Source: a virus
Lineage: Duplodnaviria > Caudoviricetes
Direction: 5' to 3' (one strand)
Virus record (IMG/VR): IMGVR_UViG_3300020045_004664
Span: 1-40,346 of that record
Length of the DNA stretch: 40,346 bases
Shown piece by piece: positions 1 through 22,050 of the stretch. The position numbers and the translations under genes were made by a program. Positions within the stretch are counted from its first letter, which is position 1; each line of letters starts with the position of its first letter. A model generated the notes under the pieces. It had not been told where the DNA came from and made no database searches. It saw nothing but the letters and a program-made list of their open reading frames with translations.

Positions 1-32
1 TTTTTATGCTGTTTCTCAGTATTTTCATCCAT

Positions 33-200: not shown

Positions 201-387
201 TTTGTATTTCTTTTATCTTGGGTATTAAGATGAGGTTAATATAATCTTTCATTCTGCGAGTAAATTCTTTATCGGTTTCTATTACATCTTGAATTTTACC
301 GGTTAATGTGTTCTTATTCTTGCCGAGCGTAATTGCTTCTTCGGCATCCTTTATCTCTTGGTTTAAAAACTCTATTAGCTTATTCAT
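193..387 (-). CDS. hypothetical protein
   Basis: 64-aa ORF translationally coupled to the end of groEL. Confidence 0.6.
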   Translation of the reverse strand: MNKLIEFLNQEIKDAEEAITLGKNKNTLTGKIQDVIETDKEFTRRMKDYINLILIPKIKEIQND

Positions 388-1918
388 CCTTTTGCTCTTC
401 GCTTATATCGCCTCCTATTGATAAAAATATAGCTGCCTCACTTACTGCGTATTGTAGCACACTCTTTACTACTTTAACTGCGTCTATAATACCTTCTTTA
501 TACATATCTTCGACTATTGTATTATCTAATGCATTATATCCTATTGTCAAGCTCTTTGACTCTCTTATTTTATCTATTATAACATCAGGGCTTCCGTTAG
601 AGTTATCCACAATTTGTCTTAATGGAGCTTCTATTGCTTTTATAACTATGTCATACCCCAATCCTATTTCTTCATTCTTATGAGGAGCAAAACTGAATTG
701 TTTAATCACATTAATAAAAGCACAGTTACCACCTATAACAATACCTTCTTCTAATGCTCTCTTAGTCTCATTAACACCATCTTCTATCTTTAACTTTAAG
801 TATCTTATCTCAGCTTCACTATTAGCTCCTACCTTTATTATAGCTATGCCATTCTGTAGTTTAGCTATTCTTTCATCATATTGGTCTTTACCCCACTTAG
901 ATTCTGTTAGCTCTCTGCGTGTTTTTAGTGTGTTTATCCATTCCTTTATATTAGCGGAACTTTGAATGATTGTGGTGTCCTTTGTGGATAAGACCTTTTT
1001 AACCTTACCTAACTTGGGTGGCTTTGTGGTATCAGTCCACACTTCAGCACCTGTTAATACACATAAGTATTCTACACAATACTTCTTCATATATACTGAT
1101 CCTGGAGTATTAATGGCCAATACATTAAATAACGAATTGAATTTACTAAATGCAAATATCTTTAATACTGATTCGTCTATATCTTCTGCAATAATGAATA
1201 GTTCTTTAGAGTTCTTCTTTACCAAACTATCTAATATAGGCTGAATTTCTCCAAAGAATGATATCTTTTTATCTATAATAAGCACTGGAATATCTTTGTA
1301 TTCAGCTTCTAGTTTCTCTCTATTAGTAACCATATAAGGACTTATGTAGCCCTTGTCAAACTTAAGCCCCTCAGCTATTTCACTTGTAATACCAAATGAT
1401 TGTGATTCCTCTACAGTTACAACACTGTCTAAACCAACCTTTTCTACTGTTTCAGCTATTACTTTACCAAGTTCTTCACTTTCTGTTGATATAGTAGCTA
1501 TTTCTCTAAGCTTTCCTTTAACAGGCTTAGCCATTCTGTCTAGCTCTGCGCATATATCTTTTACAGCCAAGTTCATACCCTTCTTTAATAGATTGGCATT
1601 AAACCCTTTGTTTATAAGCTTTAAACCTTCTGTGACTACTGCTTGTGTAATGATTGCACTCGCTGTTCTACCACCACCAACATCATCAGAAGTCTTTTGT
1701 ACTACTTCCTTGATGAGCATAGCTCCCATATTCTCTATTGGGTCTCGCAAGTTAATCTCTTTAGCTATACGCCCACCATCATTAGCTATGATAGGATGTG
1801 TTCCATTCTCTATGATTACATTCTTGCCTCGTGGGCCGATAGTTATCTTTACTGCATCTGCTACCTTATCTAGGCCAGCTTTTAATTTGTTTATATCGTT
1901 GCTTATTGTTTTAGACAT
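380..1918 (-). CDS. groEL: GroEL/Cpn60-like chaperonin (divergent)
   Basis: Motifs VADAVKITIGPRGKNVII, ENMGAMLIKEV, EGLKFDKGYISPY, ERIAKL..GIAIIKVGA, ALEEGIVIGG and GIIDAVKV. The likely start is ATG 1918 (MSKTIS), not the track's 1990. There is no C-terminal GGM tail. Confidence 0.95.
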   Translation of the reverse strand: MSKTISNDINKLKAGLDKVADAVKITIGPRGKNVIIENGTHPIIANDGGRIAKEINLRDPIENMGAMLIKEVVQKTSDDVGGGRTASAIITQAVVTEGLKLINKGFNANLLKKGMNLAVKDICAELDRMAKPVKGKLREIATISTESEELGKVIAETVEKVGLDSVVTVEESQSFGITSEIAEGLKFDKGYISPYMVTNREKLEAEYKDIPVLIIDKKISFFGEIQPILDSLVKKNSKELFIIAEDIDESVLKIFAFSKFNSLFNVLAINTPGSVYMKKYCVEYLCVLTGAEVWTDTTKPPKLGKVKKVLSTKDTTIIQSSANIKEWINTLKTRRELTESKWGKDQYDERIAKLQNGIAIIKVGANSEAEIRYLKLKIEDGVNETKRALEEGIVIGGNCAFINVIKQFSFAPHKNEEIGLGYDIVIKAIEAPLRQIVDNSNGSPDVIIDKIRESKSLTIGYNALDNTIVEDMYKEGIIDAVKVVKSVLQYAVSEAAIFLSIGGDISEEQKDE

Positions 1919-2148: not shown

Positions 2149-2649
2149 TTATTTTACCATACTTATAATATAATGTGCAAGTGTTTCATGCACTGATTCG
2201 ACTATTCCATAATCATTTGATTTAACATAAATCTTAATATCTGGTTTAAATTTACCTCCTTTAAATCCTACAAATCCTATCGTTTTTAGTCCTAATCTTT
2301 TAGCTTCTTTGATTGCCTTTAATATATTGGGAGAATTACCTGATGAACTAATAGCGACGAGTATATCAGGGGGATGCATAAAATTCTTTATTTGTTCGCT
2401 ATAGACACAGTGATAACCCATATCATTAGCATATGCTGTTAAAGTTGGAATATTATCTGATAAACAAATAGCCTCTATGCCTCCTATTTTAATCAAATCA
2501 TTGGCAAAATGAGAAGCGATAGCTGATGAGCCACCGTTTCCTATCAAATACACTCTGCGTTTCTGTTTCAATAGACTAATAAATTCATCTAGACTAGACT
2601 GAGAAACACTAGTAAATGCTTTATTAAATTGTTTAAGATACTGTTTCAT
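2149..2649 (-). CDS. gmhA: SIS-domain phosphoheptose isomerase (sedoheptulose-7-P isomerase)
   Basis: GNGGSSAIASH, TAYAND, AISSSGNSPNIL and VESVH are GmhA motifs. Confidence 0.9.
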   Translation of the reverse strand: MKQYLKQFNKAFTSVSQSSLDEFISLLKQKRRVYLIGNGGSSAIASHFANDLIKIGGIEAICLSDNIPTLTAYANDMGYHCVYSEQIKNFMHPPDILVAISSSGNSPNILKAIKEAKRLGLKTIGFVGFKGGKFKPDIKIYVKSNDYGIVESVHETLAHYIISMVK

Positions 2650-3601
2650 ATACTATTTCACTACCATGATTAGTCAACTTTATATCAACTTCTCTCCATT
2701 CTGCGAGAGCTTTTCTAACTTTAGATTGATTGTGAGGTGGAACAATCAACATCATAAAACCACCACCACCTGCACCCATAAGTCTTCCACCCCAAGCTCC
2801 ATTAGTAATACCAAGATTATACATTCTATCTATTTCCTCATCTGAAATTCCTGGCGCTAGTCCTTTTTTAAGTTCCCACATTTCACTTAATAAACTTCCT
2901 ATACCTTTAAAATCTTCTTTCTCAAGTCTTTCTAAAAATACAGGAACAGCATCTGATATCTTTTTAAGAGTTTCAAAATTATCTACTATCCTAGTTTTAC
3001 TAACTTCTAACAAGTTTTTAGCTTCTCTTGTTTTAGCCGTGTAGAAAAACATTAAATGTTTCTCAAAATCATTTTTAGTTTTAGAACTAAGATGGATAGG
3101 ATGTACTTTTACCATTCCATCTTTATTAAAATCAATCATATTCAATCCTCCATAAGATATGGTATATTGGTCTTGTTTACCTGCCCCTTCTTTCTTCTCT
3201 ATTTCGTAAGATTCTCTGGCTAGATATTCTGAATATGTAGAATTGCCTAAAAATCTATTGAGTCCCTTTAAAAGACCTATAGTAAATGCACTAGAAGAAG
3301 ATAGTCCTATTCCCTTGGAGGGCAAATCTGCAATAGATACAATCTCAATTCCTTTCTCAATACCTAATTTTTGTAAAATATTACGCACTCTTGTATGTTG
3401 TACTTCGGCACTTGTTAATACATTCTCAGTATGTGAATATGAAACTCTTATATCTCCACTAAACTTTTTTGATATTGCGATATAAACACTTTTGTCTATT
3501 GTACTACTAATCACTCGACCTGGATATTTTGTGTAAAATTCCTCATAGTCAGTATAACCTCCAACAAAACTTATTCTTAAAGGTGTTTTAACTAATATCA
3601 T
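2633..3601 (-). CDS. hddA: GHMP kinase, D-glycero-alpha-D-manno-heptose-7-phosphate kinase-like
   Basis: KTPLRISFVGGYTD, ADLPSKGIGLSSS, GKQDQY and GAGGGGF motifs. Adjacent to gmhA. Confidence 0.85.
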   Translation of the reverse strand: MILVKTPLRISFVGGYTDYEEFYTKYPGRVISSTIDKSVYIAISKKFSGDIRVSYSHTENVLTSAEVQHTRVRNILQKLGIEKGIEIVSIADLPSKGIGLSSSSAFTIGLLKGLNRFLGNSTYSEYLARESYEIEKKEGAGKQDQYTISYGGLNMIDFNKDGMVKVHPIHLSSKTKNDFEKHLMFFYTAKTREAKNLLEVSKTRIVDNFETLKKISDAVPVFLERLEKEDFKGIGSLLSEMWELKKGLAPGISDEEIDRMYNLGITNGAWGGRLMGAGGGGFMMLIVPPHNQSKVRKALAEWREVDIKLTNHGSEIVYETVS

Positions 3602-4317
3602 TTAAGTAAATGTTTATACTTATCTCGGTTGTTTACAATCTCTTCAGGTAATTCTGATTCATCAACCCATAATTTGAAATCTCGACCTAAATAATCAAGA
3701 TTATGTTTGAATGCCAAAGGAATGTTGTTATGAACCACAGGGATATTAAAATGTTGGTCGCTATAACTCTGCACTTTGTACTTGAGATTATCTTGACCTC
3801 CCATATTAGTGAAATGCCATCCTAGATAATCATCACTTAATACTGCTTTAGACCTTAATTCGTTTAAACTCTTTGATTTCAAAGTTCCATATTTACATAC
3901 AACTGGGCCTAGCCTAAAATCTTCTGAAGAACGGTTATTAAGCCAATAAGTATATTGACGAAGTTTTATTTTTGTCATATCAGACAAACTGACTGCTTTT
4001 CTTTCCCATATTTCATCACAATCACCCATTACAACAGTATCTTCGTCATCTAAATGCATTAAACAATTCTTTATCATCTCTCGCTGATTAGATTCATTTA
4101 TGAAGTAGGGAGTAGTGTCAGGCTTTAAGTCTTTTATTTGAGTAAAGAAATGATATGAAACTTTTGGTAAATTGATAGGATGAGATTCTTTCTTATTATG
4201 ACTAAATGTTTCTCCAAACTCCACCACTACAAATTCATCCACATAATCCTTTAAGATGTTATATCTTAAATCAAATATCTCTCGTTCCCCATTATATAAA
4301 ATTGCATCTACTATCAT
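3598..4317 (-). CDS. GT17-family (beta-1,4-N-acetylglucosaminyltransferase-like) glycosyltransferase
   Basis: YNGE..LR...L...VD.FVVVE, E..QR, DCDEI and GWHFT pattern of GT17. Confidence 0.75.
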   Translation of the reverse strand: MIVDAILYNGEREIFDLRYNILKDYVDEFVVVEFGETFSHNKKESHPINLPKVSYHFFTQIKDLKPDTTPYFINESNQREMIKNCLMHLDDEDTVVMGDCDEIWERKAVSLSDMTKIKLRQYTYWLNNRSSEDFRLGPVVCKYGTLKSKSLNELRSKAVLSDDYLGWHFTNMGGQDNLKYKVQSYSDQHFNIPVVHNNIPLAFKHNLDYLGRDFKLWVDESELPEEIVNNRDKYKHLLK

Positions 4318-5030
4318 AGTATTTTAAGCATGGCCTTAGTTTTTAATTCATTATATTCAGGTGTGCAATGTTTAGCATAGTTACTAGATGTTTTGTAATG
4401 GAACATAAAGGGAAGTATGTCTACACTATAAGGATGAGGGAAATCTTTAAGTAATTCATTTGGCTCATCTAGAACTTCTCCTCTTTCTATAAACTTAATC
4501 TTTGGATTATGCTTTTGAATATATCCATTGATAGCTGAACCTACATCTTGATAGTTTTTTCCATCCAGACAAGCAAAACTAAAACTAATGTCATCTGCCT
4601 TAATTTTATCCATATCAAATATCATTAGACCAGTCCAAGGCCACACTTTACCATCTGTATATAAAGGACAAAAAGCCATATCATATCCATTTAGCAAATC
4701 TTTGAATGATACATCTTTGGTGAAAAACAAATCACCATCCATTATGGCTAATATACCTTTTACCTCTTTGAAATCTTTCCATAAAAAGTTTAATGTATCT
4801 CTTACTAAAGCTGAGGGTTCTGTCTTACCCTTTTGATGGGCAACTTTTAAATATCCAGTTTGCAATCTATCACATTCTTCAAATATTTCTTTTGGTTTAT
4901 CTTGTCCAAAATAAGAGTTATTTGCTACTATATAATAAAAGTCATCCTTTAAATACTTTTTAGCTGAATTATATTGTAATTCAATGAAATCTGGTCTATT
5001 AGAATGTAATGTAAGTAATGTTACCGCCAT
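4314..5030 (-). CDS. hypothetical GT-A-fold-like protein
   Basis: IMDGDLFF DxD motif and WTGLMIFD. Sits inside the glycan operon. Confidence 0.5.
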   Translation of the reverse strand: MAVTLLTLHSNRPDFIELQYNSAKKYLKDDFYYIVANNSYFGQDKPKEIFEECDRLQTGYLKVAHQKGKTEPSALVRDTLNFLWKDFKEVKGILAIMDGDLFFTKDVSFKDLLNGYDMAFCPLYTDGKVWPWTGLMIFDMDKIKADDISFSFACLDGKNYQDVGSAINGYIQKHNPKIKFIERGEVLDEPNELLKDFPHPYSVDILPFMFHYKTSSNYAKHCTPEYNELKTKAMLKIL

Positions 5031-5611
5031 AATGTATATAATCCTCGTTCCATTATTTGTGCTTCTCCAGGATATCTATCCCATTCTAAATACGACCTCA
5101 ACTTTTCATAAAATGCCTTAGGATGTTTTAGTATATTATCTTTTGTTAATATGTAATTAGAACCAGGGGCAAATGGTATATAATCCATTGTACCAATTCC
5201 TAATATCTCTTGCAATTCATATGGTACCATTTTATTCTTGCACGGATAGACTCCGAGATACCACATATCATTCCTCTCATAATACATACCATCCACATAT
5301 CTACACACAGGTTCATATACTTTGTGATTTTGAGTAAGCAAAGGTTGGAACTTTGTTTTATCAAGGGCATCAAATTCTTCTTTCAAAATATAATTAAATA
5401 GATTTGCCTTCGTATAAACAGCAATATTAGGAAGGTTGTCGTAATTATCTATTATGTAAGTAAATTTGTCGTAAATGTCAGTACCTATGTTTTTTACCAC
5501 AATGCTATCTTTCATAGGCTCATCACTACGGTCGTACATGATAACCTCTGTATCAGGATAGTCTTTCATCCAATCCATATTATGATTGTATCTGCTTATT
5601 ATCCATTTCAT
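5021..5611 (-). CDS. DUF3431-like protein (putative glycosyltransferase-related)
   Basis: IISRYN..MDW, YIIDNYDNLP, FAPGSNYILTKDNILKHPKAFY and MER..W pattern. Confidence 0.6.
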   Translation of the reverse strand: MKWIISRYNHNMDWMKDYPDTEVIMYDRSDEPMKDSIVVKNIGTDIYDKFTYIIDNYDNLPNIAVYTKANLFNYILKEEFDALDKTKFQPLLTQNHKVYEPVCRYVDGMYYERNDMWYLGVYPCKNKMVPYELQEILGIGTMDYIPFAPGSNYILTKDNILKHPKAFYEKLRSYLEWDRYPGEAQIMERGLYTLWR

Positions 5612-6366
5612 ATATATGTAAATCTTTTATAATAATTCTGTGGCATTGACCATTGTTTTATATTGTGTCTAGCCCAGTATCGTGGCGCAATTATCTTTTT
5701 GGCGTTCTTATTAAGGAGTGCAGGAAATATTGCAAAACTAGAATTAGAAATAATAAGATAGTGAGCATTCAATATAGAAGTCCAATCATCTGCTATTTCG
5801 TGGCTTATTTCAAAATTAGGGAAGTATTGGCGAGCAGTAATTATATCATCTGTAACGACCTTTAAGACTATATTGGGTTTAAGCTTTCGTATCTCAGTAA
5901 TAGCATCATCGTAATACTCTTTAGTCAACATTAAATCAGGATATAAAGTAAACTCGCCACCTCTGAAAGCTATAACGCATATCTCGTCATAAAATCCAGC
6001 CAACAACTCAGGATTAATATTAAGCCATCCAAGTATTTTATCCATATGATGTTCAAAATATCGTGAGTCCTGAAATTCTCCATCTATGATAGTGTTGTCT
6101 TCTATAAAATTAAATTCAGGATTGTAATAATTTGTTTCTTCTTTCCATACACTCATATTCAGTGGTGGTAGAATATCTCCGAATACTTTTCCCGTATCAA
6201 TATTCATGAAAGATTTTCCTTTGAATCCCATCTCCTTTCCCGAACTATCAGGATTATAAATCATACCGAAATCCACTCCCAAATCAAGAGCTTTAACTCT
6301 AGTCGCCACATAGCGGTGCAACTGGTTGCCAAGCCCCGAACCTTGATGAAATATCCCTGCTATCAT
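5608..6366 (-). CDS. GT11-family (alpha-1,2-fucosyltransferase-like) glycosyltransferase, divergent
   Basis: GLGNQL, DGEFQ, FRGGEF, VVTDD and IISNSSF motifs. Confidence 0.75.
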   Translation of the reverse strand: MIAGIFHQGSGLGNQLHRYVATRVKALDLGVDFGMIYNPDSSGKEMGFKGKSFMNIDTGKVFGDILPPLNMSVWKEETNYYNPEFNFIEDNTIIDGEFQDSRYFEHHMDKILGWLNINPELLAGFYDEICVIAFRGGEFTLYPDLMLTKEYYDDAITEIRKLKPNIVLKVVTDDIITARQYFPNFEISHEIADDWTSILNAHYLIISNSSFAIFPALLNKNAKKIIAPRYWARHNIKQWSMPQNYYKRFTYI

Positions 6367-6992
6367 ATAAGATTTGCGTATTGTTGATTGCGACCATTTA
6401 ATTTATGGAACCCAAAAGGTTTGTCTACATCTTGATTCTCTGGCAATTCATGCTCTCTACTAAAGTGTTTAGCAACTTCTAACGGGGCAAACTTAACTCC
6501 AAAATGTTGCAAGAGTCTTCGGTTATGGCAAGTTAAAAATCCATCTTCATTGCAATTTCCAAAATAAGGTCTCCATGCAAACTCCATTTCATAGGGTAAA
6601 TTAAGTAATCTTTTACTTCTAAAACTAACTGCCCCATTTCCTACCCTAATTATCTCTCCATCAGGACTTCTGTAAGAAAAATCATCCTGAGGTAAAGGCC
6701 AAGGGGCACCTATATAATCATAATTAAACCAATCATTGTTCCACATTTCAGGATTTACGATAAATCCATCATCTTGAATGGTTACGCAATAATCTGTATC
6801 CACAAACTCTCGTAATCTATATATCATTGCATTACTATATTCATCAAGATTCTTCATTGGAACTCCAGTAATTAGTTTGACTGCACCCCAGTCTATACCA
6901 AGACTACTATATTCAAGAGCTTTAAAATGCCCCATTTGGTTTTTAGAAGTCATACATATTAAAGTTACATTAGGTAATTTAATTTTTTGCAT
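6363..6992 (-). CDS. DUF5672-like protein (putative glycosyltransferase)
   Basis: IQDDGF, YDYIGAPW, VGNGAVSFRSKRLL, NEDGF, A.HFS.E and FGFH pattern. Confidence 0.7.
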   Translation of the reverse strand: MQKIKLPNVTLICMTSKNQMGHFKALEYSSLGIDWGAVKLITGVPMKNLDEYSNAMIYRLREFVDTDYCVTIQDDGFIVNPEMWNNDWFNYDYIGAPWPLPQDDFSYRSPDGEIIRVGNGAVSFRSKRLLNLPYEMEFAWRPYFGNCNEDGFLTCHNRRLLQHFGVKFAPLEVAKHFSREHELPENQDVDKPFGFHKLNGRNQQYANLI

Positions 6993-8157
6993 AATAATCT
7001 TTAAATACCTTTATTATGTAATCTAAATCAGATTTTTTAAGGCGAGGATGACAAGTAATCCAAAATGAATGTTTCAATATCCAATCCGATTCTCTTAATA
7101 TTCCATGAATACGATATTTACTATCTTTGTATGCTGGATGTTTTGTTATATTTCCACTAAACATACTACGAGTTTCTATGCCATGCTTTTCAAGATATGG
7201 AACTAATGTCTTTCTATTATCAAAACCACAACTTAATGGAAAAGCAAACCAGCATATATCTGCATTTGGTGACCATTGAGGTCTGATTAAATCACCAATT
7301 CCTGCGAGACCTCTATATAAATAATTAAAATTCTTTTGTCTTAATCTTTTTATTTTATTACTCTTTCGTAATTGCACTCTACCCATCGCAGCCTGAAGTT
7401 CTAGTATTTGAAAGTTGTAACCTATTTTGTCGTAGACGAACCGTGGATTGTAGTCCTTCGGGAGGGTTTTGACTTTGTGTGGTTTGTTTGTTTCAAATTG
7501 CCTACCCCAGTCTCGGTACTGTCTGACAGCATTAGCCAACTTACTATCGTTAGTAAATACACCACCTCCAACACCCATAGAAACAATATGAGCTGCGTGG
7601 AAACTTGTAATTGATATATCCCCAAAAGAGCCAACGGACTTGTCACCGATACGACTGCCCCAACCATCACAATTATCTTCAATGACTTTGACATTATATT
7701 TACGAGCCACTTTCATCAGTCTTGGCATATCACAGGGATTGCCCACTGCATGAACGGCTATTATACATTTAACCCGACCTTTACTTTTAATGATTGCTTG
7801 CTCTACTTCATCTACATCAAAATTATAAGTACCTACTTTAGCGTCCACCACAACAGGGACAAGATTGCACTGGAAGATAATATTAAATATAGTAGGGAAT
7901 GTAACGGCCGAGATGATGACTTCAGAACCTTTGGGAAACTCCAGAGCTGCAAGAGCAAGCAACCCAGCACTAGAACCACTATTAGTAATAACTCCATATT
8001 TCATACCCAAGAACTTAGCAGATTCTTCTTCCATTTTTCTAGCCTCAGAAGCAGTCTGCCAGTTGCCTGTTTTACGGCTTTTATTAACTGACTTTATAAT
8101 AGCATTGACTTCAGCTTTACCAATCAATGCACCACCATATCTTAAATCTAGAGCCAT
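6979..8157 (-). CDS. DegT/DnrJ/EryC1/StrS-fold PLP/PMP enzyme, RfbH(DdhC)/ColD-type 3-dehydratase
   Basis: NSGSSA, HAVGNP, EDNCD, RDWGR and GYN motifs. SFHAAHIVSMGVGG has His at the position of the usual Schiff-base Lys. Confidence 0.85.
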   Translation of the reverse strand: MALDLRYGGALIGKAEVNAIIKSVNKSRKTGNWQTASEARKMEEESAKFLGMKYGVITNSGSSAGLLALAALEFPKGSEVIISAVTFPTIFNIIFQCNLVPVVVDAKVGTYNFDVDEVEQAIIKSKGRVKCIIAVHAVGNPCDMPRLMKVARKYNVKVIEDNCDGWGSRIGDKSVGSFGDISITSFHAAHIVSMGVGGGVFTNDSKLANAVRQYRDWGRQFETNKPHKVKTLPKDYNPRFVYDKIGYNFQILELQAAMGRVQLRKSNKIKRLRQKNFNYLYRGLAGIGDLIRPQWSPNADICWFAFPLSCGFDNRKTLVPYLEKHGIETRSMFSGNITKHPAYKDSKYRIHGILRESDWILKHSFWITCHPRLKKSDLDYIIKVFKDYYAKN

Positions 8158-9149
8158 TGTTTATTCTCAAGAGTCCAATCAATCGACCTTTTCCAAGATT
8201 CTTCAAAATCTTCTGGTGGTTTCCAACCCAAATTCTTTAATCTGTCTCCTGAAAGTGCATAACGCCTATCATGGCCTGGTCGACTTTTGTGAAAATCCTC
8301 AAATTTATATTTTAATTCCTTATCTAAAAGACGAGCAGTCATTTGAGCCAATTCAAGATTGTTAAGTTCTGTCTCCCCAACGATATTGTATTGAGATGGA
8401 ACTAATACGAAGTCTTCAATATAATGCGCTGGTGGTAATTTATTAACTATGTATAGGACAGCATCTGCCGCATTCCTAGCGTGGATATAGAACCTTGAAC
8501 CTATATCTTCTGGCTTGCCATGTACTGTTACTTCTTCCCCATTGTAAATCTTCCTTAAACATAAAGCAGGAAATTTCTCTGCATCTTGTGTTTGTCCTAT
8601 TAGGTTCATAGTGTTTGTGATAATGATAGGCACATCATAAGTTCTCCAATAAGAGAATGCTATAGCTTCTTGTGCTGCTTTTGACGCACTATATGGATTA
8701 GAAGGACGAATAGGTGAACCTTCTTTAAAATTAATTCCCTTAGGAGCTGGCCCATAAACTTCATCGGTTGAAAACTGTAAAAATAATTTAGGCTTAATCT
8801 CTCTTGCTAATTCAAGCATAGTGAGAACAGATTGTACATTCCCTAATACAAAAGGAGCAGGGTCTGTGATTGACCTGTCTACATGTGAATTGGAAGCTAT
8901 GTTTAATATATAATCTATCTTACCAATTCTCTTTTTAGTTTGTTCTGTAAAAGGAGCTTCCAAATCATGACGAATAATAGTGACTCTATTTTTATCTTGG
9001 TCTTTCCATGCATTCTCTACTCTTTCAGGTGTTCCTTTATGTTTCCACGATACAATACAAACTATCTCCCAGTCTGTGTTCATTAATAAATGACGAAGCA
9101 AATGAGACCCAAAAAATCCACTAGCTCCTGTTAAAATTACTCTTTTCAT
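8148..9149 (-). CDS. rfbB: dTDP-glucose 4,6-dehydratase-like SDR
   Basis: TGASGFFG, SHVDRSI, STDEVYG, PSNPYSASKA and RPGHDRRYAL motifs. Confidence 0.88.
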   Translation of the reverse strand: MKRVILTGASGFFGSHLLRHLLMNTDWEIVCIVSWKHKGTPERVENAWKDQDKNRVTIIRHDLEAPFTEQTKKRIGKIDYILNIASNSHVDRSITDPAPFVLGNVQSVLTMLELAREIKPKLFLQFSTDEVYGPAPKGINFKEGSPIRPSNPYSASKAAQEAIAFSYWRTYDVPIIITNTMNLIGQTQDAEKFPALCLRKIYNGEEVTVHGKPEDIGSRFYIHARNAADAVLYIVNKLPPAHYIEDFVLVPSQYNIVGETELNNLELAQMTARLLDKELKYKFEDFHKSRPGHDRRYALSGDRLKNLGWKPPEDFEESWKRSIDWTLENKQWL

Positions 9150-9714
9150 ATTTTTTGTTTATTATTTTATGCTCTGCTAATTTATCTTTATCTGTTAATA
9201 TATTAGTCATTTGTCCATCATGAATTCCAATATTGATTCCTATACTATCTAAAATCTTAGGTGGCCCATATTCTTCATAAAGTCTTTTATATAAATCACA
9301 ATCTAGTAACCAACTCATTCTTTCATCAAAAAATAATGCATTCTTCCTTCTCATGGTTAAAGCAGATGGAGACCCAAGTTTATTATTCCCTTTTATTATA
9401 TCATCAGTCCAATAAGGATGAGGATTTGTATCTGCTCCTGTAATTAACCAATCATCCATAAATTCAAAGTTATCTACTATATCTTGTAGTGCCCTATCAT
9501 GTGCAAGCCAATCATCCATATACAATATCTTTACTAAATCTCCTTTTGCTTCTTTGATAGAGGCATTAGTGTTTTCCGCCATCCTGCCTTTTTCTGTTAT
9601 TACTATTTCATAATCTTGAAATGTCTGAGACCGAATACTATGTAAGGCTCTTTCTAAAAAGAATTCCTTGTTCTTCATTCCATGCGTTGGTATGCAAATT
9701 GAAAGTTTAGGCAT
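9121..9714 (-). CDS. GT2-family glycosyltransferase
   Basis: LSICIPT, SIRSQTFQDYEIVI, LYMDD, GSPSA and FDE....LDCDLY motifs. Confidence 0.85.
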   Translation of the reverse strand: MPKLSICIPTHGMKNKEFFLERALHSIRSQTFQDYEIVITEKGRMAENTNASIKEAKGDLVKILYMDDWLAHDRALQDIVDNFEFMDDWLITGADTNPHPYWTDDIIKGNNKLGSPSALTMRRKNALFFDERMSWLLDCDLYKRLYEEYGPPKILDSIGINIGIHDGQMTNILTDKDKLAEHKIINKKYEKSNFNRS

Positions 9715-10102
9715 TTTTTACTCTATTACGAAGTTCACTAGTACTAAAATTGTGTCTTCTTGAAGTATAAATCATTTTTATTGGCAACTCATTTCCTGTA
9801 AATACTTTACCTCGATACTCCTCTCCGATAAATCTTACATCTGGTTTAATCATCTGCAACAAATTAAACAAATCTCCTTCAGTATCATATGGTATTATTT
9901 CATCTATAAATTTACATCCCTTCAATTGCATAAATCTTTCAAAACTTGTTTGAATTGGCCTATTCTTGCTCGGACGATTTAATGTTGGGTCGGTATGTAA
10001 ACCTACAATTAGATAGTCACATTGTGCCCGTGCCTCTTCTAGCATGGCTACATGGCCTGTATGAAGTAAATCAAATGCTGATGCTGTGAATCCTTTATTC
10101 AT
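9707..10102 (-). CDS. cytidylyltransferase-family nucleotidyltransferase (TagD/HldC-like)
   Basis: FDLLHTGH (HxGH), DYLIVGL and RRHNFSTS motifs. Confidence 0.85.
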   Translation of the reverse strand: MNKGFTASAFDLLHTGHVAMLEEARAQCDYLIVGLHTDPTLNRPSKNRPIQTSFERFMQLKGCKFIDEIIPYDTEGDLFNLLQMIKPDVRFIGEEYRGKVFTGNELPIKMIYTSRRHNFSTSELRNRVKNA

Positions 10103-10412
10103 CTTTGAAAAATTCTTTATCTTTTAAACCGTGGTCATCTATATAATAATCTGCACTTAATTTTTCTCCTACCCTTAATAAATGATATTTAAGACCCCAC
10201 ATTTCTAATTGATTTTCTGTAAATTTTTTCCAATCAATCCCAGTACTAGCTCCTCTGGCGGTATCGACCAAAATGATATGTCCGTCATCATATAAGGAAT
10301 TTACCTTTTCTATTCTATTTCTTATAGGAATAGCTAAATTATATTCTTTATGGCCATATTTATTTTTAACTATAGTACACAAAGTTCCATCAAGGTCAAA
10401 ACAATAGGTCAT
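10095..10412 (-). CDS. small HAD-superfamily phosphatase (capsule-biosynthesis type)
   Basis: FDLDGTLC, TARG and K..ADYYIDD motifs. The likely start is ATG 10412, overlapping the upstream stop (ATGA). Confidence 0.85.
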   Translation of the reverse strand: MTYCFDLDGTLCTIVKNKYGHKEYNLAIPIRNRIEKVNSLYDDGHIILVDTARGASTGIDWKKFTENQLEMWGLKYHLLRVGEKLSADYYIDDHGLKDKEFFKDE

Positions 10413-11134
10413 TCGTTTATATACTCCATTACATTTATAATAGGCGACCAATTAGGAGTAGTGTTTGGTAGTACAGATTTTCTAGCTTCTTTTCTTGCTG
10501 GTTTGAATCTTACAGTCTTACCTTCAGCTAATTGAATTAGATTTGTTTTGATTCCACTTCCCATTTTATATTCTCCTTTATCCCAGAAAAATGCTTTGTC
10601 CAATCCTATTACTATATCATCAACATGAACATAATCCCTTATTTGCTTTCCATCTCCATAGATAATAACTTCTTCCTTATCTTTAAAAATATCAACCACA
10701 CTTCTTGGAAGACCAAAGATATTAGAGAAGTAAAGTATAACCGCATTATTATGAAATTTCTTAAGATATTCATTACAAGCCCATTTAGAGAAACCATAAG
10801 GAGAAACAGGGTCTATTGAAGCTCCTGTAGAAGCAAATACTATTTTTGCATCAGGATAAGCATGCACAAGACGAACTGTTGTAGCTAGATTTTGTACTGT
10901 CCTTACAGGGTCTTTCCAACTATCTTCAACTGGAGCATGAGCAGCTAAATGATAGACTACATCTATATCAGGAGGAAGTTCACAAGTAAGCAAATCTTTA
11001 CCATCCTTAGTATCTATACCTAAAAGTTCCCATTCACCATCTCCTTTTAAATGGTCATATGTATAAGCAGACAATCTGTTCCAAAGTTTTGTACCTATTT
11101 GACCTTTATGACCTGTGATTAAAATTCTACTCAT
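10409..11134 (-). CDS. NAD-dependent epimerase/dehydratase (short SDR)
   Basis: ITGHKGQIG, YHLAA, SPYGFSK and YGDGKQIRDYVHVDD motifs. Confidence 0.88.
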   Translation of the reverse strand: MSRILITGHKGQIGTKLWNRLSAYTYDHLKGDGEWELLGIDTKDGKDLLTCELPPDIDVVYHLAAHAPVEDSWKDPVRTVQNLATTVRLVHAYPDAKIVFASTGASIDPVSPYGFSKWACNEYLKKFHNNAVILYFSNIFGLPRSVVDIFKDKEEVIIYGDGKQIRDYVHVDDIVIGLDKAFFWDKGEYKMGSGIKTNLIQLAEGKTVRFKPARKEARKSVLPNTTPNWSPIINVMEYINE

Positions 11135-11580
11135 ATTGCATTTGCATATTCTTTATAAACTTTACTGGCTTCTATTGCCGTAGAAAAAACTCCAAGAGAT
11201 TTTAATTTACCATTATCCCAAATTCTCGATTCATATTTACCATTAGGTCTTCTATTTGCTCCAACAACTTTCCCTTTTCTATGTATATGACGATTTTGCT
11301 GATTAATCCTATTAGTTGTAATACGGAGATTTATTTTTCTATTATCTAATCCATTTCCATTTATATGGTCTACGATTTTTTTATCGCTCTTCTTTAATCC
11401 TAAGATTATACGATGCATATATAATTTCTTTTTAGTTCTAGTAGCATAAAAAGTATCTTTATAATTTTTATGTGCACTCCATTTATGTAATGAAATAATT
11501 TCGTAGTCTTCATTGTCTACTTTTGCAAACTTTCCATGATTAAGTGGGATGAGTTTCATAACTTTATCTAATCTTCGCAT
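11131..11580 (-). CDS. HNH homing endonuclease with AP2-like C-terminal domain
   Basis: YMHRIIL, VDHINGNGLDNRKINLR and LGVFSTAIEASKVY motifs. An alternative start is ATG 11559. Confidence 0.9.
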   Translation of the reverse strand: MRRLDKVMKLIPLNHGKFAKVDNEDYEIISLHKWSAHKNYKDTFYATRTKKKLYMHRIILGLKKSDKKIVDHINGNGLDNRKINLRITTNRINQQNRHIHRKGKVVGANRRPNGKYESRIWDNGKLKSLGVFSTAIEASKVYKEYANAI

Positions 11581-12545
11581 AAATCACGAATAATGTCAAG
11601 TAAATTATAACTATAATCCCATTTGGGATAATCTTTTCTAAATCTTGAAACATCATGCACATCCCAAACTCGGTCACCTCTTCTGTGTTTGTCAATGTAT
11701 TTTACTATTGCTTTTTTGCCAACTTCGTGTTCTATAGTTTCGATAGCTTCAATAACAGATAGACTTCTTTCTTCACCACCTCCCATATTATAAACTGCTC
11801 CTATTTTTGGTTTTTGTATAAATTCATAACAAGCATTTATTAAATCATACGAATGAATTTGGTCTCTAACCTGTTTTCCTTTGAATCCAAAAATATTATA
11901 TTCTTTTTCTTCTTTTATACATTTAACTAAATATGCTAGAAATCCATGTTCCTGCGCTCCTTTATGTTTCTTACCTGTTATACAGCCACATCTAAAGCAG
12001 ACCGTTTTCATTCCGAAAAAGTTACCATATTCCTGCACATAAATATCAGCTGCAGTTTTAGAACAACCAAATAAAGAACGATTCCCAGCAAAATCTAATC
12101 CTGTATTTTCATCAAATGTTTCAAAGTGGGTAAAACGAGTCCCATTTTCTACTACATGGCGTTCCATATTCTCTCCATAAACTTTATCAGTGGATATATG
12201 AACAAAAACTGCACTAGGGCAATACTTGCGAGTAGCTTCTAATAAAATTAGTGTACCTCTTGCATTAACATCAAAATCAGTCAAAGGCTCTTTCTTTGCC
12301 CAATCGTGTGATGGTTGAGCGGCTGTATGCAATATTGCATCAAATCCTTTTTCCATATCGAACAAATTATTTACGGCCTTCTCATCTCGTATGTCTATTT
12401 CAAATTGAGGTTTACCTTTTTCTACTCCAAAGAAATAGGAACGCATATTATTATCAATTCCAACAACTTCCCAACCTTTCTTTTTAAAGAAATCAACTGC
12501 TTCACTACCTGTCATACCTAATGAACCTGTAATTAAAATTTTCAT
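11568..12545 (-). CDS. NAD-dependent epimerase, CDP-paratose 2-epimerase (RfbE/Tyv)-like
   Basis: ITGSLGMTG, HTAAQPSHD, STDKVYG, LFGCSKTAADIYVQEY and GKQVRDQIH motifs. Confidence 0.8.
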   Translation of the reverse strand: MKILITGSLGMTGSEAVDFFKKKGWEVVGIDNNMRSYFFGVEKGKPQFEIDIRDEKAVNNLFDMEKGFDAILHTAAQPSHDWAKKEPLTDFDVNARGTLILLEATRKYCPSAVFVHISTDKVYGENMERHVVENGTRFTHFETFDENTGLDFAGNRSLFGCSKTAADIYVQEYGNFFGMKTVCFRCGCITGKKHKGAQEHGFLAYLVKCIKEEKEYNIFGFKGKQVRDQIHSYDLINACYEFIQKPKIGAVYNMGGGEERSLSVIEAIETIEHEVGKKAIVKYIDKHRRGDRVWDVHDVSRFRKDYPKWDYSYNLLDIIRDLCED

Positions 12546-13129
12546 ATGACTTCAAAATTATTTGGTAAAGAAATAGTTGTATCATTTGCAAACCATTTTT
12601 TAGGTGCTATCACTTTATTATTTCTAGGGTCAAGATAAGAAGCCCAAAAGCTAAATGATGAATTAGCCATAATATGCCCTTCACAACATGCCATATCTTC
12701 TAAATCCTGTGTTTCTCCTTTTGGTTCATGAATGGTATATTTCCCTTTAATAAAAGTATCCAAGAAATTTTTACACCACTTCTTATCTTCTTCGTCTTGT
12801 TCTACATTTTGTCCATCATGACAAAAAACCCTAAATGTTATATTAGGAAACATTTTAACTGCTCTTTGATAATAATCAGTTTGAGTTAAATCTATATAAT
12901 AATTATTATTAATATAATCCCCACGCCTTATGTGTAGAGATACTTGACATATATACACATTGTTAACTATATTAAATACATTTCTTAATTCATTTTTATA
13001 TTTATCAAATGTAGTGTAATCTTGCAAATAGATATCTGGTAATTTTCCTTCTCTAACTTGACTATAAAGAAAAGCAAATTGAAAAAGTCTATTTCCTAAT
13101 CCTCCCATAAATTGTCTTACATTCTTCAT
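12542..13129 (-). CDS. GT11 alpha-1,2-fucosyltransferase-like
   Basis: GGLGNRLFQ, HIRRGDY (GDP-sugar binding) and MANSSFSFWASYL motifs. Confidence 0.9.
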   Translation of the reverse strand: MKNVRQFMGGLGNRLFQFAFLYSQVREGKLPDIYLQDYTTFDKYKNELRNVFNIVNNVYICQVSLHIRRGDYINNNYYIDLTQTDYYQRAVKMFPNITFRVFCHDGQNVEQDEEDKKWCKNFLDTFIKGKYTIHEPKGETQDLEDMACCEGHIMANSSFSFWASYLDPRNNKVIAPKKWFANDTTISLPNNFEVI

Positions 13130-13818
13130 ATAGGTAAAGGTGACTTAATTTCTACAAATTCAGGAAATACTTTCGGAAAGTCTTTAACTATTTGAGTCAT
13201 TAGTTCTATATGGTGAGCCATTGCATCATTTATCATACTCTTTTCTTTAGTTCGATAAAGCCATAAAACTTCAGGAATGGTAGTTATTATATTTCCACGA
13301 CTTAATAAGTTAAACCACAAATGATAATCTTCATATCCAAAAGTCATTTTAGGGCTATATCCTCCTACTTCTAATAAAGCTTCTCTTTTAATTGCTGAAC
13401 AATATCCTATCCTATTTCCAGTTTTAAAATCTTCTATTGTAGGATTAGCCATCAGTTTTATAACTGTATTTCTTATACCAAATTCCTTAAATGAAAGTCC
13501 TATTATATCTGCTTTAGTTTTTTCTATCTCCTTTTCAATAATTTCTGTGCAGTTCGGGATAAGAATGTCATCAGCATCTAGAGGTAAAATATAGTCTCCT
13601 GTTGCATTCATTATTCCTGTATTCCTCGCAGAACTTAAACCTTTATTAACTTGTGAAATAACCTTTACTGGATACTTGCGAGCAATTTCAAGGGAATGGT
13701 CTGTACTACCATCATCAACTACAATTACTTCACAAGGAACAATCTGATTCAAAGCAGATTCAATAGCATCTGGCAAATATTCTTGTTGGTTATATGAAGC
13801 TATTACAATTGTAATCAT
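13126..13818 (-). CDS. GT2-family glycosyltransferase
   Basis: IVIASYN, VVDDGSTD, NKGLSSARNTG, LDADD and YEDY motifs. Confidence 0.92.
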   Translation of the reverse strand: MITIVIASYNQQEYLPDAIESALNQIVPCEVIVVDDGSTDHSLEIARKYPVKVISQVNKGLSSARNTGIMNATGDYILPLDADDILIPNCTEIIEKEIEKTKADIIGLSFKEFGIRNTVIKLMANPTIEDFKTGNRIGYCSAIKREALLEVGGYSPKMTFGYEDYHLWFNLLSRGNIITTIPEVLWLYRTKEKSMINDAMAHHIELMTQIVKDFPKVFPEFVEIKSPLPI

Positions 13819-14852
13819 TTTTTTAACATTTCCGTTATTGCCTTACCGCCTTCTTTAGAAGTAGTAAACCATTTAGTAACTGTTATTATTTTCGGTTGGT
13901 AATGTTGTCCCCAAAGTGGTTCGTAATATTCTTTAATTAAACTATCAGGATAAATGTATGAAGGAGTTAAAACTATTTCAGGTTGATTTTCTGACAAATA
14001 TTTATTCCATGCACTTTCATCATTCCAAATAGGTACATAGCCCTTATTCATATCTTGTTCAATTATTTTTCTAGTTTCTTTCATTGCTTCTATAAACTTA
14101 TCAGCTTTTCCTCCTTGGAATCCTCCTGCGAAATACAAAGGCATGAATCTAGGTTTACCTCCATCTGATATTATTTGTCCTGGTCTTTTGATATAAGAAG
14201 CTGAAGTAGGGTTAGGTTCATAAGGTGGCCAATACTCTTTTCGTAAAGCATACATGGGATGTAAAGCGGCCATTAATCCTTCTTTAGGTAATATTTCATC
14301 TCCCACTATATTTACTATCTTCATATCTATATCGAGATAAAAGACATAATCATAGTCCTTGAGTTTGTGTTCTTCTTGTAGAAATAGATTATATCTTAAA
14401 AGAGTAGGATATGGCCATTCAACTGGTTCTGTGGGAATTATATTTATATCCTTCTGCCCTCTTAATTTATTTATAGAATCTGAGATATTTTGTATTTGAT
14501 TTGAAATAACAATATCATTTATATCTTTACCTCTTTCTTTCCAAGATGCAGATATCTTATGATATACCTCATAAGGATTTTCTGGTATATCAGTCCAAAA
14601 GAAGAAATCAGTTTTATGGCCTGGAAGAAAATACTCTTTTGTTCCTTGTACCATTTCAGGTGCATATTGCCAATAAAGTGGATTTAAACATATAAATACT
14701 AATGCTACCTTAAATTTCTTATCTAAACTTTTTTGATTAGAGCCACAATAATTTACTAATTCAGAATCTAGTACAATTCTATCAACATTAGACTCTAGTC
14801 CTTTTGAATTATAGAAATTATTTGCTAAACGAGTAAAATCTTTTGGATTCAA
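13815..14852 (-). CDS. GT6-family (ABO/alpha-1,3-Gal/GalNAc transferase-like) glycosyltransferase
   Basis: FFFWTD, WP..TL.RY, YVFYLDID, LHP, YFAGGFQGG, WNDESAWNKY and LTPSYIYP match the GT6 signature. TTG start. Confidence 0.9.
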   Translation of the reverse strand: MNPKDFTRLANNFYNSKGLESNVDRIVLDSELVNYCGSNQKSLDKKFKVALVFICLNPLYWQYAPEMVQGTKEYFLPGHKTDFFFWTDIPENPYEVYHKISASWKERGKDINDIVISNQIQNISDSINKLRGQKDINIIPTEPVEWPYPTLLRYNLFLQEEHKLKDYDYVFYLDIDMKIVNIVGDEILPKEGLMAALHPMYALRKEYWPPYEPNPTSASYIKRPGQIISDGGKPRFMPLYFAGGFQGGKADKFIEAMKETRKIIEQDMNKGYVPIWNDESAWNKYLSENQPEIVLTPSYIYPDSLIKEYYEPLWGQHYQPKIITVTKWFTTSKEGGKAITEMLKK

Positions 14853-15013: not shown

Positions 15014-15042
15014 ATTATACTACCTTAACTTTTAATTGCAAA
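15014..15042 (-). promoter_or_regulatory. sigma70-like promoter for the glycan operon (probably leaderless)
   Basis: TTGCAA (15036-15041), 16 nt spacer, TATAAT (15014-15019), then ATG at 15007. Confidence 0.55.
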
Positions 15043-16776: not shown

Positions 16777-16781
16777 ATAAT

Positions 16782-16925
16782 CTATTCTTTGGTTAATAAA
16801 TCTCTTATATCTAATAATACTTTTAATTGAATAAATTGTGTAATTGCTATTTGATGATATATATTATCTTTTACTTTCCGAGTTTCTTCTTCAAATTCTT
16901 TCAAAACTTCTTGTTGTGTTCTCAT
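16782..16925 (-). CDS. mini-gene (47 aa), ends LLTKE*
   Basis: Hand-translated; fills the gap between neighbouring genes. Confidence 0.55.
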   Translation of the reverse strand: MRTQQEVLKEFEEETRKVKDNIYHQIAITQFIQLKVLLDIRDLLTKE

Positions 16926-16946
16926 ATATTATTCTTTGGTTAATAA
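16783..16946. repeat. 17-bp perfect direct repeat TATTCTTTGGTTAATAA (16783-16799, 16930-16946)
   Basis: Direct comparison. It encodes identical LLTKE* ends on two adjacent unrelated genes. Confidence 0.85.
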
Positions 16947-17129
16947 TTTATATTCATAAGTTGCTGAAAAAATATCATCACTATTATTTAAACCAGTTAT
17001 CCTTCTTTGAACATACTCAAACCAAACATATATTTCATCATCAATTTTTACAGGATACCAAGCAAAATATTTATACCATTCTTTTTTTCTTTTTTTTCTT
17101 AACCACGCACTTGCTGTTATAAATTTCAT
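16929..17129 (-). CDS. hypothetical protein
   Basis: W..YFAWYPVK....VWFEYV pattern; ends LLTKE*. Confidence 0.65.
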   Translation of the reverse strand: MKFITASAWLRKKRKKEWYKYFAWYPVKIDDEIYVWFEYVQRRITGLNNSDDIFSATYEYKLLTKE

Positions 17130-17142
17130 ATATCTTTCCCCA

Positions 17143-17343
17143 TTATTTTACAGCTAGGGGAGCTGGGGGTAATCTTTTAATTCTAGGAACAAGGATATTT
17201 TTAATGTCTTTATCTTCTGTAAGGCGGAATCCACGAGAGTAGGTAAAGTTGTCTTCGCTATTTACTCTTTCAATGATTTCTTCTTTAGAGAAAATGCCGT
17301 ACTTTGGTTTAAATTCTGTTTTAAGGGGTTGTATTGTTTGCAT
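17143..17343 (-). CDS. hypothetical protein
   Basis: 66-aa ORF coupled to the ninG stop. Confidence 0.55.
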   Translation of the reverse strand: MQTIQPLKTEFKPKYGIFSKEEIIERVNSEDNFTYSRGFRLTEDKDIKNILVPRIKRLPPAPLAVK

Positions 17344-17736
17344 TACATTTTACGATATTCTTCCAATAATTCTAAATAGAAATCCATTGCTTTCACAGTT
17401 ACTTGTCTATCTTTTTTTAACTGCTCCATGTACTCTGCTCCTTCTTCTTGCCACATTCTTAGATAAAAGTCTGCTCCCATTCCGCCTTTGTTTATGTTGC
17501 AACTGTAACACTGCGGACGTAAAATCCGTAAATCGTACTTCAAGTAAGCCCCCAGGCTCGCCTTTGGCCACATATGGCCCGTATGCCAGTTCAACCCCTC
17601 TAGGTTCAATTTGTTGCACGTATAACATACATTTCCATATTTTGCCCTGATTATTCTTCGACAATGTTCCCATATTTTTCTTTGTATTAAGCTAATAGAT
17701 TGTTTAGACTTTTTTTTTTAATGGAGTTCTTTTCAT
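17343..17736 (-). pseudogene. ninG: NinG/Rap-like HNH endonuclease with a +1 frameshift in an A10 tract
   Basis: CYTC...HTGH...LRPQCYSCN motifs. ATG 17736 overlaps the upstream stop. Removing one A from 17710-17719 joins MKRTPLKKK to SKQSISLIQRKIW... Confidence 0.75.
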
Positions 17737-19538: not shown

Positions 19539-19725
19539 ATTTGCTCTTCTCTATGACCCCTGTTTTAAATTTTCCTTATTGTAAACAGGGGATAGAGTAT
19601 TTAGTTGATAAACATTTTCGATAATCTTTTGACTCATAGAGTCTAGGTTATCTGGGGACTTGCTTGTGGGTGGTTTGTAGTAAAGATTTCTCTAACCACT
19701 TACTCCCTTGCTTATCCTTATTATC

Positions 19726-19754
19726 AGTATATTCCTATATCATACGCTTGTCAA
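19726..19754 (-). promoter_or_regulatory. near-consensus sigma70 promoter
   Basis: TTGACA (19749-19754), 17 nt, TATACT (19726-19731). A tandem TTGACA-17-CATATT lies at 19777-19805. Confidence 0.75.
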
Positions 19755-22049: not shown

Positions 22050-22050
22050 A

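What the first reader, a model, noticed from the sequence alone, without database searches (positions are those of the whole stretch)
12542..14852. Blood-group-like module: ABO-type GT6 (DxD, AGG) + GT2 + GT11 at the head of the operon
Seen: the GT6 has YLDID, YFAGGFQGG and WNDESAWNKY, and lies two genes from a GT11 with HIRRGDY. Known: GT11 alpha-1,2-fucosyltransferases make the H antigen, which GT6 enzymes extend. Characterised bacterial GT6 enzymes have NxN and are metal-independent, while vertebrate ABO and the cyanophage P-SSM2 enzyme have DxD. The tripeptide at ABO positions 266-268 sets the donor (LGG/AGG = GalNAc, A-type; MGA = Gal, B-type). Inference: the phage could build an A-antigen-like GalNAc(a1-3)[Fuc or dideoxyhexose(a1-2)]Gal cap with a metal-dependent GT6.
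Basis: partly seen in the sequence, partly recalled or inferred. Interest (0 to 1): 0.85.

Follow-up and report, generated by a model that had tools for sequence, protein, structure and literature searches.

The report
Core phage glycan cassette with GT6
An uncultured phage carries relatives of the two enzyme families that make human ABO blood-group sugars, at the head of an eight-gene sugar-transfer cassette found next to the DNA-packaging genes in every near-complete relative checked; the cassette likely sugar-coats the virus particle, but the product is probably not a true blood-group A antigen.

Summary
GT6 (13815-14852), GT2 and GT11 head 18 overlapping glycan genes of a ~43-kb podovirus-like phage. 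DxD and AGG sit at the BoGT6a/ABO positions and are fixed in relatives (120/120, 119/120). DxD+AGG is not new: P-SSM2 has it, and Parachlamydia GT6 is a metal-dependent A-type enzyme. P-SSM2 and S-CAM9 also pair GT6 with GT11.

Four points argue against an A antigen. Substrate-contact residues differ (Thr134→Pro and His190→Asn in 120/120; Gly124→Met in 82/120). AGG does not fix the acceptor. The GT11 is a 195-aa miniature lacking most of the acceptor domain. The window has no GDP-fucose pathway, but 3,6-dideoxysugar-type enzymes.

The larger finding: eight genes (GT6, GT2, mini-GT11, GT2, DUF5672, second GT11-like, DUF3431, GT17-like) form a core cassette upstream of the terminase. All eight are present in 5/5 genomes found by capsid alone, while the sugar-synthesis genes swap. 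There are no membrane parts, integrase or base-modification enzymes. Virion glycosylation is most likely (~0.6), untested. The scan noted a GT6+GT11 43-kb phage and terminase-adjacent glycan cassettes before, on other DNA.

The parts
13815..14852 (-). GT6, DxD/AGG, WNDE subclade, with clade-specific N-terminal helices and a two-helix insert (93-131)
13126..13818 (-). GT2a, core; next labelled gene after GT6 in 51 of 51 loci
12542..13129 (-). Mini-GT11 (GT11a), 195 aa; GDP-sugar-binding domain intact, N-terminal domain reduced; core
11568..12545 (-). CDP-tyvelose 2-epimerase-like SDR (accessory, 8 of 19 cassettes)
11131..11580 (-). HNH homing endonuclease (passenger)
10409..11134 (-). Short NAD-dependent epimerase/reductase (accessory, 9 of 19)
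10095..10451 (-). HAD-type phosphatase (accessory)
9707..10102 (-). Cytidylyltransferase-like nucleotidyltransferase (accessory, 5 of 19)
9121..9714 (-). GT2b, core
8148..9149 (-). RmlB-like NDP-hexose 4,6-dehydratase (accessory, 12 of 19)
6979..8157 (-). E1/RfbH-like PLP 3-dehydratase; active-site His kept, Fe-S cysteine segment absent (accessory, 14 of 19)
6363..6992 (-). DUF5672, core, presumed transferase (untested)
5608..6366 (-). Second, divergent GT11-like protein (GT11b), core
5021..5611 (-). DUF3431, core, presumed transferase (untested)
4314..5030 (-). 238-aa ORF without family, not seen in the related loci
3598..4317 (-). GT17-like, core, last transferase of the cassette
2633..3601 (-). 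HddA-like GHMP sugar kinase (accessory, 1 of 19)
2149..2649 (-). GmhA-like SIS isomerase (accessory, 1 of 19)
380..1918 (-). Variant GroEL between the cassette and the terminase
1..32 (-). Probable first 10 codons of the small terminase (contig end; judged by position and by eye)
15014..15042 (-). Sigma-70-like promoter candidate 190 nt upstream of GT6; a similar site lies upstream of GT6 in 8 of 18 relatives (lead only)

Best explanation
The GT6, GT2 and GT11 genes head an eight-gene cassette that is a core part of a family of ~43-kb podovirus-like phages, and this cassette likely builds a branched glycan on virion proteins. Shown: gene content, order, conservation, position upstream of terS-terL-portal, soluble enzymes. 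Inferred: GT6 is a Mn/Mg-dependent retaining alpha-1,3 transferase that likely adds a GalNAc-like sugar from a UDP donor; GT2a likely makes or extends its acceptor; mini-GT11 and GT11b likely add branch sugars. The branch sugar would depend on the swappable synthesis genes: probably a 3,6-dideoxyhexose here, and possibly fucose in the Gmd carriers. The product would be blood-group-like in architecture at most, and probably not the A trisaccharide.
For: Core status: of the 20 of 26 capsid-found loci tested, 13 have GT6, including 8 of 8 at least 90% complete. The 5 genomes not found through GT6 all hold 8/8 core genes, as do 19 of 19 cassette-spanning loci. The cassette lies upstream of the packaging genes in the 12 loci measured: GT17 ends 3-4749 nt before terS (9 loci), 3855 nt before terL (1), or 235-241 nt before GroEL where the locus ends earlier (2); in G007 GT17 abuts terS. 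The core transferases have no membrane helix (maximum 19-residue hydropathy 0.49-1.11). No flippase, polymerase or lipid-carrier transferase is found. No integrase, DNA polymerase, thymidylate-synthase or TET hit in 48 window proteins or 58 proteins from relatives. GT6 keeps the catalytic set Y60, R153, D174/D176, Y240, AGG, W276, D278, E279, K327 in 119-120/120. Precedent: covalent capsid and tail glycans made by phage transferases in mycobacteriophages (second-hand passages).
Against: No biochemical, proteomic or expression evidence. No initiating protein glycosyltransferase was identified. DUF5672 and DUF3431 are only presumed transferases. The sigma-70-like site upstream of GT6 would also fit early expression acting on the host; promoter-like sites in the region are fewer than in shuffles (59 against 84.8). 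Similar clusters in T4-like cyanophages are read in print as host-surface modifiers. Nine of the 19 loci were chosen because they span GT6 to GT17, which biases the count for the end genes.
Confidence: 0.6

Rival explanations
1. One reading: GT2, GT11 and GT6 build an A-antigen-type cap, GalNAc(a1-3)[Fuc or dideoxyhexose(a1-2)]Gal. This concerns the product and is compatible with any target.
For: AGG, DxD, His198, Tyr240, Trp276 and Glu279 kept; small Thr324 at the A7 site and Leu305 would leave room for a 2'-branch. GT6 and GT11a co-occur in 19/19 cassettes. A nucleotide-sugar enzyme that swaps between phages (tyvelose-epimerase-like 15, Gmd 4, GME-like 2) directly follows GT11a in 21 of 29 loci. 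PaGT6 (DxD) acts on H antigen.
Against: Thr134→Pro and His190→Asn in 120/120, Gly124→Met in 82/120, His122→Gln in 7/120; these contact the 6-OH groups or the acceptor in BoGT6a. AGG permits Forssman and iGb3 synthase activity. GT11 also holds an alpha-1,3 FucT. GT11a has a reduced acceptor domain. No Gmd/Fcl in the window; Gmd in 3 of 19 cassettes. The megaphage version has GT6 with GT11b but no GT11a hit within 10 kb.
Confidence: 0.3
2. The cassette remodels a host surface glycan (LPS, S-layer or pilus glycan) during infection, to exclude other phages or evade grazers.
For: This is the published reading of cyanophage LPS-like clusters. The enzymes resemble O-antigen pathway enzymes. A host-type promoter candidate heads the cassette. 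The predicted C-terminal helix of GT6 (333-344) could touch a membrane.
Against: No integrase and no integrated copy: one hit in the GTDB collection, a 43.4-kb contig of phage-genome size in a MAG. No membrane components. Fixed position beside the packaging genes. An eight-gene core is large for editing an existing host glycan.
Confidence: 0.2
3. The transferases hypermodify phage DNA against restriction.
For: Phage glycosyltransferases often modify DNA. SIS isomerase, kinase, HAD and nucleotidyltransferase genes can supply such sugars (recalled).
Against: No hydroxymethylase, TET-like oxygenase or own polymerase to provide a hydroxylated base; relatives carry ordinary adenine and cytosine methyltransferases instead. 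GT6 and GT11 act on sugar acceptors in every case read.
Confidence: 0.08
4. The cassette makes a free glycolipid or small glycoconjugate, or drains host nucleotide sugars (the 'auxiliary metabolic gene' reading).
For: A soil virome paper reads phage GT6 and GT11 as glycosphingolipid-synthesis genes (annotation-based).
Against: Strict core status and position beside the terminase; no lipid-handling genes.
Confidence: 0.07

Closest known systems
GT6 clade 1: cyanophage P-SSM2 PSSM2_268, marine-metagenome homologues and Parachlamydia PaGT6 (PMC3516806)
   Same: DxD, AGG (P-SSM2), no BHB-type tail evident; GT11 nearby in P-SSM2 (PSSM2_265) and adjacent in S-CAM9
   Different: 29% identity to P-SSM2; separate well-supported subclade (100/99) with WNDE for WHDE, Pro for Thr134/Ser, an inserted loop and extra helices; GT11 partner is miniature; core gene of a small podovirus-like family rather than part of a T4-like island
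Bacteroides ovatus BoGT6a and human GTA (A-antigen synthases)
   Same: Fold (Z 27.7, rmsd 2.0, 223 residues), AGG, catalytic Glu, Trp, Lys
   Different: DxD instead of NxN (against BoGT6a); Thr134, His190, Gly124 and Asn69 equivalents changed; acceptor unproven
E. coli O86 O-antigen cluster (WbnI GT6 + GT11 fucosyltransferase, blood group B)
   Same: GT6 and GT11 encoded by one strain to build an ABO epitope; a GT2 partner in that cluster is recalled, not checked
   Different: No Gmd/Fcl, flippase or polymerase here; AGG rather than B-type; GT11 truncated
Mycobacteriophage virion glycosylation (Che8, Rita; Freeman et al. 2023, seen only second-hand)
   Same: Several phage-encoded soluble glycosyltransferases in a tailed phage
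   Different: Different enzyme families, own nucleotide-sugar genes, core status across a whole family; target not shown here
Glycan clusters of megaphage LR756502 and cyanophage S-H68 (unstudied)
   Same: Megaphage: GT2-GT6 fusion, GT2b, DUF5672, DUF3431, GT11b, GT17, E1-like; S-H68: DUF5672, GT2b, GT11b, GT17, E1-like
   Different: Unrelated phages; megaphage GT6 keeps WHDE and HPG; not beside a terminase as far as seen

Membership tests
CAZy GT6 | Sequence profile above curated cut-off | tested here: met
   Pfam PF03414 72 bits against cut-off 25; NCBIfam Gltr_6 147 bits is below its subfamily cut-off of 250
CAZy GT6 | GT-A fold matching BoGT6a/GTA/GTB/alpha3GT | tested here: met
   Z 27.7, rmsd 2.0, 223 aligned to 4ayj
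CAZy GT6 | Catalytic Glu, Trp, Asp and C-terminal Lys | tested here: met
   W276, D278, E279, K327 in 120/120
Metal-dependent GT6 | DxD motif | tested here: met
   D174-I-D176; DxD in 120/120
Metal-dependent GT6 | Activity needs Mn2+/Mg2+ | not testable with these tools
   predicted from PaGT6
A-antigen synthase (GTA/BoGT6a type) | GalNAc-permissive tripeptide at 266-268 | tested here: met
   AGG in 119/120; not exclusive to A synthases
A-antigen synthase (GTA/BoGT6a type) | Acceptor set His122, Thr134, Tyr153, Trp189, Glu192 and small A2 residue | tested here: not met
   Thr134 is Pro (120/120) and A2 is Met in the window; the other four are kept
A-antigen synthase (GTA/BoGT6a type) | Small A7 residue leaving room for the 2'-fucose | tested here: met
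   Thr324 in 119/120
A-antigen synthase (GTA/BoGT6a type) | Donor O6 contact His190 | tested here: not met
   Asn277 in 120/120
A-antigen synthase (GTA/BoGT6a type) | GalNAc transfer to H acceptor | not testable with these tools
   needs assay
CAZy GT11 | Profile and three motifs including HxRRxD | tested here: met
   PF01531 60 bits against 23.9; motifs present, first Arg invariant in 12/12
GT11 alpha-1,2-fucosyltransferase | Full two-domain GT-B body of about 260-300 aa | tested here: not met
   195 aa; motif I-II spacing 54-58 in the 18 of 40 rows where both motifs were detected, against 130-135 in 3 cyanophage GT11s; no N-terminal sheet in the model; GT-B fucosyltransferase-like matches only at Z 7.4-8.7
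GT11 alpha-1,2-fucosyltransferase | GDP-fucose supply (Gmd + Fcl) | tested here: inconclusive
   not encoded in the window; Gmd in 3/19 cassettes; host supply unknown
Virion glycosylation system | Glycan covalently bound to capsid or tail proteins | not testable with these tools
   only context evidence
Serotype-conversion / O-antigen cluster | Membrane flippase, polymerase or GtrABC parts; temperate carrier | tested here: not met
   none found; the window lacks about 3 kb and small ORFs were not scanned
DNA hypermodification system | Base hydroxymethylase/TET or own polymerase | tested here: not met
   no such Pfam hit in 48 + 58 proteins

The most novel reading that the evidence does not exclude
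A widespread family of small environmental phages coats its virions with a blood-group-like branched glycan, GalNAc(a1-3)[deoxyhexose(a1-2)]Gal-type. A fixed eight-enzyme line is fed by swappable sugar genes, giving phage 'serotypes' (dideoxyhexose here, fucose and hence a true A epitope in Gmd carriers). It would be made with an undescribed GT6 subclade and a minimal GT11, and the same kit would be reused by unrelated megaphages and cyanophages.
Probability: 0.2. Interest if true: 0.8.

Novelty: new variant of a known kind. Interest (0 to 1): 0.45.

Why it matters
If right, virion glycosylation is not a mycobacteriophage oddity but a core trait of a large environmental phage family (1207 GT6 relatives at E<=0.001). 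The glycan would be complex and variable, built by a fixed line of transferases. The WNDE/Pro GT6 subclade and the 195-aa GT11 are small soluble enzymes that can be assayed at once. They test how far the ABO specificity code (tripeptide, acceptor residues) holds outside characterised enzymes, and may accept unusual deoxysugars. The bare GT6+GT11 pairing is not itself new.

Tried and rejected
Host search: the GT6 profile found nothing in the GTDB collection (63 pattern hits, 0 confirmed). The capsid profile found 1 contig of 43.4 kb, phage-genome size, in a Cellvibrionaceae MAG, which I read as a binned phage contig and not as host evidence. Named phages match only weakly (capsid 26-28%, terminase 25-29%). 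Cluster look-up gave no names. No RNA holder was listed. No longer or fused GT6 forms among 1562 candidates (weak, since the 530-aa megaphage fusion lies below that length range). No PDB sequence hit for GT11a (best E 0.84) or the GT17-like protein. Atlas searches only returned DUF3431 and DUF5672 clusters, mostly viral; their folds stay untested. No tRNA in the window. Promoter scan below chance overall; the 8/18 against 2/54 upstream count uses coding DNA as control and is a lead only. Paper searches for the cassette found no description; some searches gave the background used. PMC13216743 mentions GT63/GT113 only. Freeman et al. 2023 was not held. Fig. S1 of PMC3516806 (alignment with PaGT6) was not seen, so whether PaGT6 keeps Thr134/His190 is unchecked. 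Loci were fished with a WNDE pattern, so motif counts rest on the 120 phmmer hits instead. No complex prediction was run.
Full report
OBSERVATION. The window is one whole 40,346-nt contig of a phage: major capsid protein at 35796-36881, portal C-terminus at the right end and probable terminase start at the left end. Relatives are 40-44-kb genomes, several with terminal repeats, so about 3 kb (terS, terL, portal start) is missing. The three genes and all quoted motifs are there. AGG aligns with BoGT6a A155-G157 and ABO 266-268, and DID with NAN/DVD. The model matches BoGT6a at Z 27.7. GT6 heads 18 genes whose 17 junctions all overlap.

GT6. There are 1207 relatives at E<=0.001; I aligned the best 120, the query included. 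DxD is in 120/120, AGG in 119/120, and the catalytic Trp, Asp, Glu and Lys in 120/120. PMC3516806 (passages and section 6) and PMC3961637 (passages) show that DxD GT6s of P-SSM2, marine metagenomes and Parachlamydia form a known clade. PaGT6 transfers GalNAc to H antigen with Mg or Mn, so metal dependence and a GalNAc-type donor are fair predictions, but not new. The same papers name the contacts. Against them this clade has Pro for Thr134 (acceptor H-bond) and Asn for His190 (donor O6) in 120/120, Met for Gly124 in 82/120 (Gly in 38), and Gln for His122 in 7/120. The small A7 residue (Thr, 119/120) is kept. P-SSM2 keeps Ser and His at the first two sites. In a 16-row tree the clade is separate from P-SSM2 (100/99; long branches flagged). 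PMC6351642 (passages) shows that AGG also supports Forssman and iGb3 synthase activity, and PMC5377540 (passages) warns that a motif does not guarantee function. The tripeptide therefore leaves the acceptor open.

GT11. The neighbour has all three motifs but only 195 aa. The motif I-II spacing is 54-58 residues in the 18 of 40 rows where both were detected, against 130-135 in three cyanophage GT11s. Its model (pLDDT 86.4) has no N-terminal sheet and resembles GT-B enzymes, among them FUT8, POFUT1/2 and NodZ, at modest scores. GT11 also includes an alpha-1,3 enzyme (PMC4202792 passages). A second, divergent GT11-like gene lies at 5608-6366, so which GT11, if any, feeds GT6 is open.

SUGAR SUPPLY. 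No window protein passes the Gmd or Fcl cut-offs. It has an RmlB-like dehydratase, an E1-like 3-dehydratase with the active-site His but no Fe-S cysteine segment, a tyvelose-epimerase-like SDR and GmhA/HddA-like enzymes. This points to a 3,6-dideoxy sugar and perhaps a heptose (inference).

FAMILY CONTEXT. Loci came (10 loci; 53 loci). GT2a is the next labelled gene after GT6 in 51 of 51 loci (HNH, cupin and unlabelled ORFs skipped; 9 duplicate or overlapping loci dropped). Eight genes (GT6, GT2a, GT11a, GT2b, DUF5672, GT11b, DUF3431, GT17-like) are present in 19 of 19 cassettes: 10 near-complete genomes plus 9 loci picked for spanning the cassette; shorter loci were left out. Accessory genes vary: E1-like 14, RmlB-like 12, tyvelose-epimerase-like 8, Gmd 3, GME-like 3 ('GME-like' is my recalled label; a homologue is annotated as UDP-glucose 4-epimerase). 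As an unbiased test, the capsid search gave 26 loci; I passed 20 on (6 under 9 kb left out). GT6 was found in 13, including 8 of 8 near-complete records, and the five new ones carry all eight genes. The cassette lies upstream of the packaging genes in the 12 loci measured, with GroEL between them in 6. Seven of the eight families recur in a 642-kb megaphage, with GT2 fused to GT6, and several recur in cyanophage S-H68. GT6 with GT11 is annotated in P-SSM2 and adjacent in S-CAM9, and is reported in soil phages (PMC12016548 passages).

TARGET. The core enzymes are soluble. No integrase, polymerase, hydroxymethylase or TET domain was found in 48 window proteins or in 58 proteins of relatives (44 of 53 unlabelled ORFs, 9 probable shadow ORFs dropped, plus 14 others). 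Core status and position beside the packaging genes favour virion glycosylation, with precedent in mycobacteriophages (PMC11256854 and PMC12619734 passages). Host-surface change is the main rival (PMC12801897 passages). The host is bacterial, since relatives carry amidase, M23, CHAP and SLT lysins, but unknown. Shine-Dalgarno-like 4-mers are no commoner than chance (4 of 39 genes against 13%), A stands at -3 in 25 of 39, and the promoter candidate is of sigma-70 type. This would fit Patescibacteria (recalled traits; about 0.4, untested).

VERDICT. A real and conserved feature, best seen as a new variant of phage glycan cassettes with an undescribed GT6 subclade and a minimal GT11. I found no paper on the cassette. 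Earlier notes of this scan describe a 43-kb phage with GT6+GT11 and several terminase-adjacent cassettes; they agree but are not independent evidence. Odds: virion target 0.6, metal-dependent HexNAc transfer 0.7, H-like branched acceptor 0.3, true A antigen in this phage 0.1.

Noticed in passing
window 380-1918 (-); L009, L023, L126, L127, L128: Phage GroEL between the glycan cassette and the terminase, in 5 of 19 cassettes counted. The ATP-site motif (GDGTTT in ordinary GroEL, recalled) reads GGGRT in the window and in 5 of 5 long relatives; no GroES was seen. It may be an ATPase-altered chaperonin.
   Followed up: partly
window 6979-8157 (-): E1/RfbH-like dehydratase keeps the His but lacks the Fe-S cysteine segment in all relatives listed, suggesting ColD-like chemistry on an E1 scaffold.
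   Followed up: partly
window 11568-12545 (-): Tyvelose-epimerase-like SDR has Phe where the solved enzyme has the catalytic Tyr.
   Followed up: no
L130:4949-16823 (LR756502): Unannotated 642-kb megaphage carries nearly the same cassette, with GT2-GT6 and RmlD-GT2 fusions.
   Followed up: partly
L067:9833-10558; L068:3409-4134: GT6 with WNDE and CGG on contigs whose neighbours look eukaryotic-virus-like (kinase, helicase; judged by eye).
   Followed up: no
window 21171-22773 (-): IS1595-family transposase ORF overlapping the end of a Dam-type methyltransferase.
   Followed up: no
L119:13033-14457; L126:5330-6895; L004-L054: Accessory slots of the cassette also hold a B12 radical-SAM enzyme, methyltransferases and many HNH genes, suggesting methylated sugars in some members.
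   Followed up: no
L031, L032, L037, L043, L047, L051, L052, L056: In a short-GT6 subgroup (about 260 aa) a mini-GT11 lies upstream of GT6; L043 has two copies.
   Followed up: no
window 19540-21170 and 16780-17730: Stretches with few long ORFs; no tRNA found.
   Followed up: no
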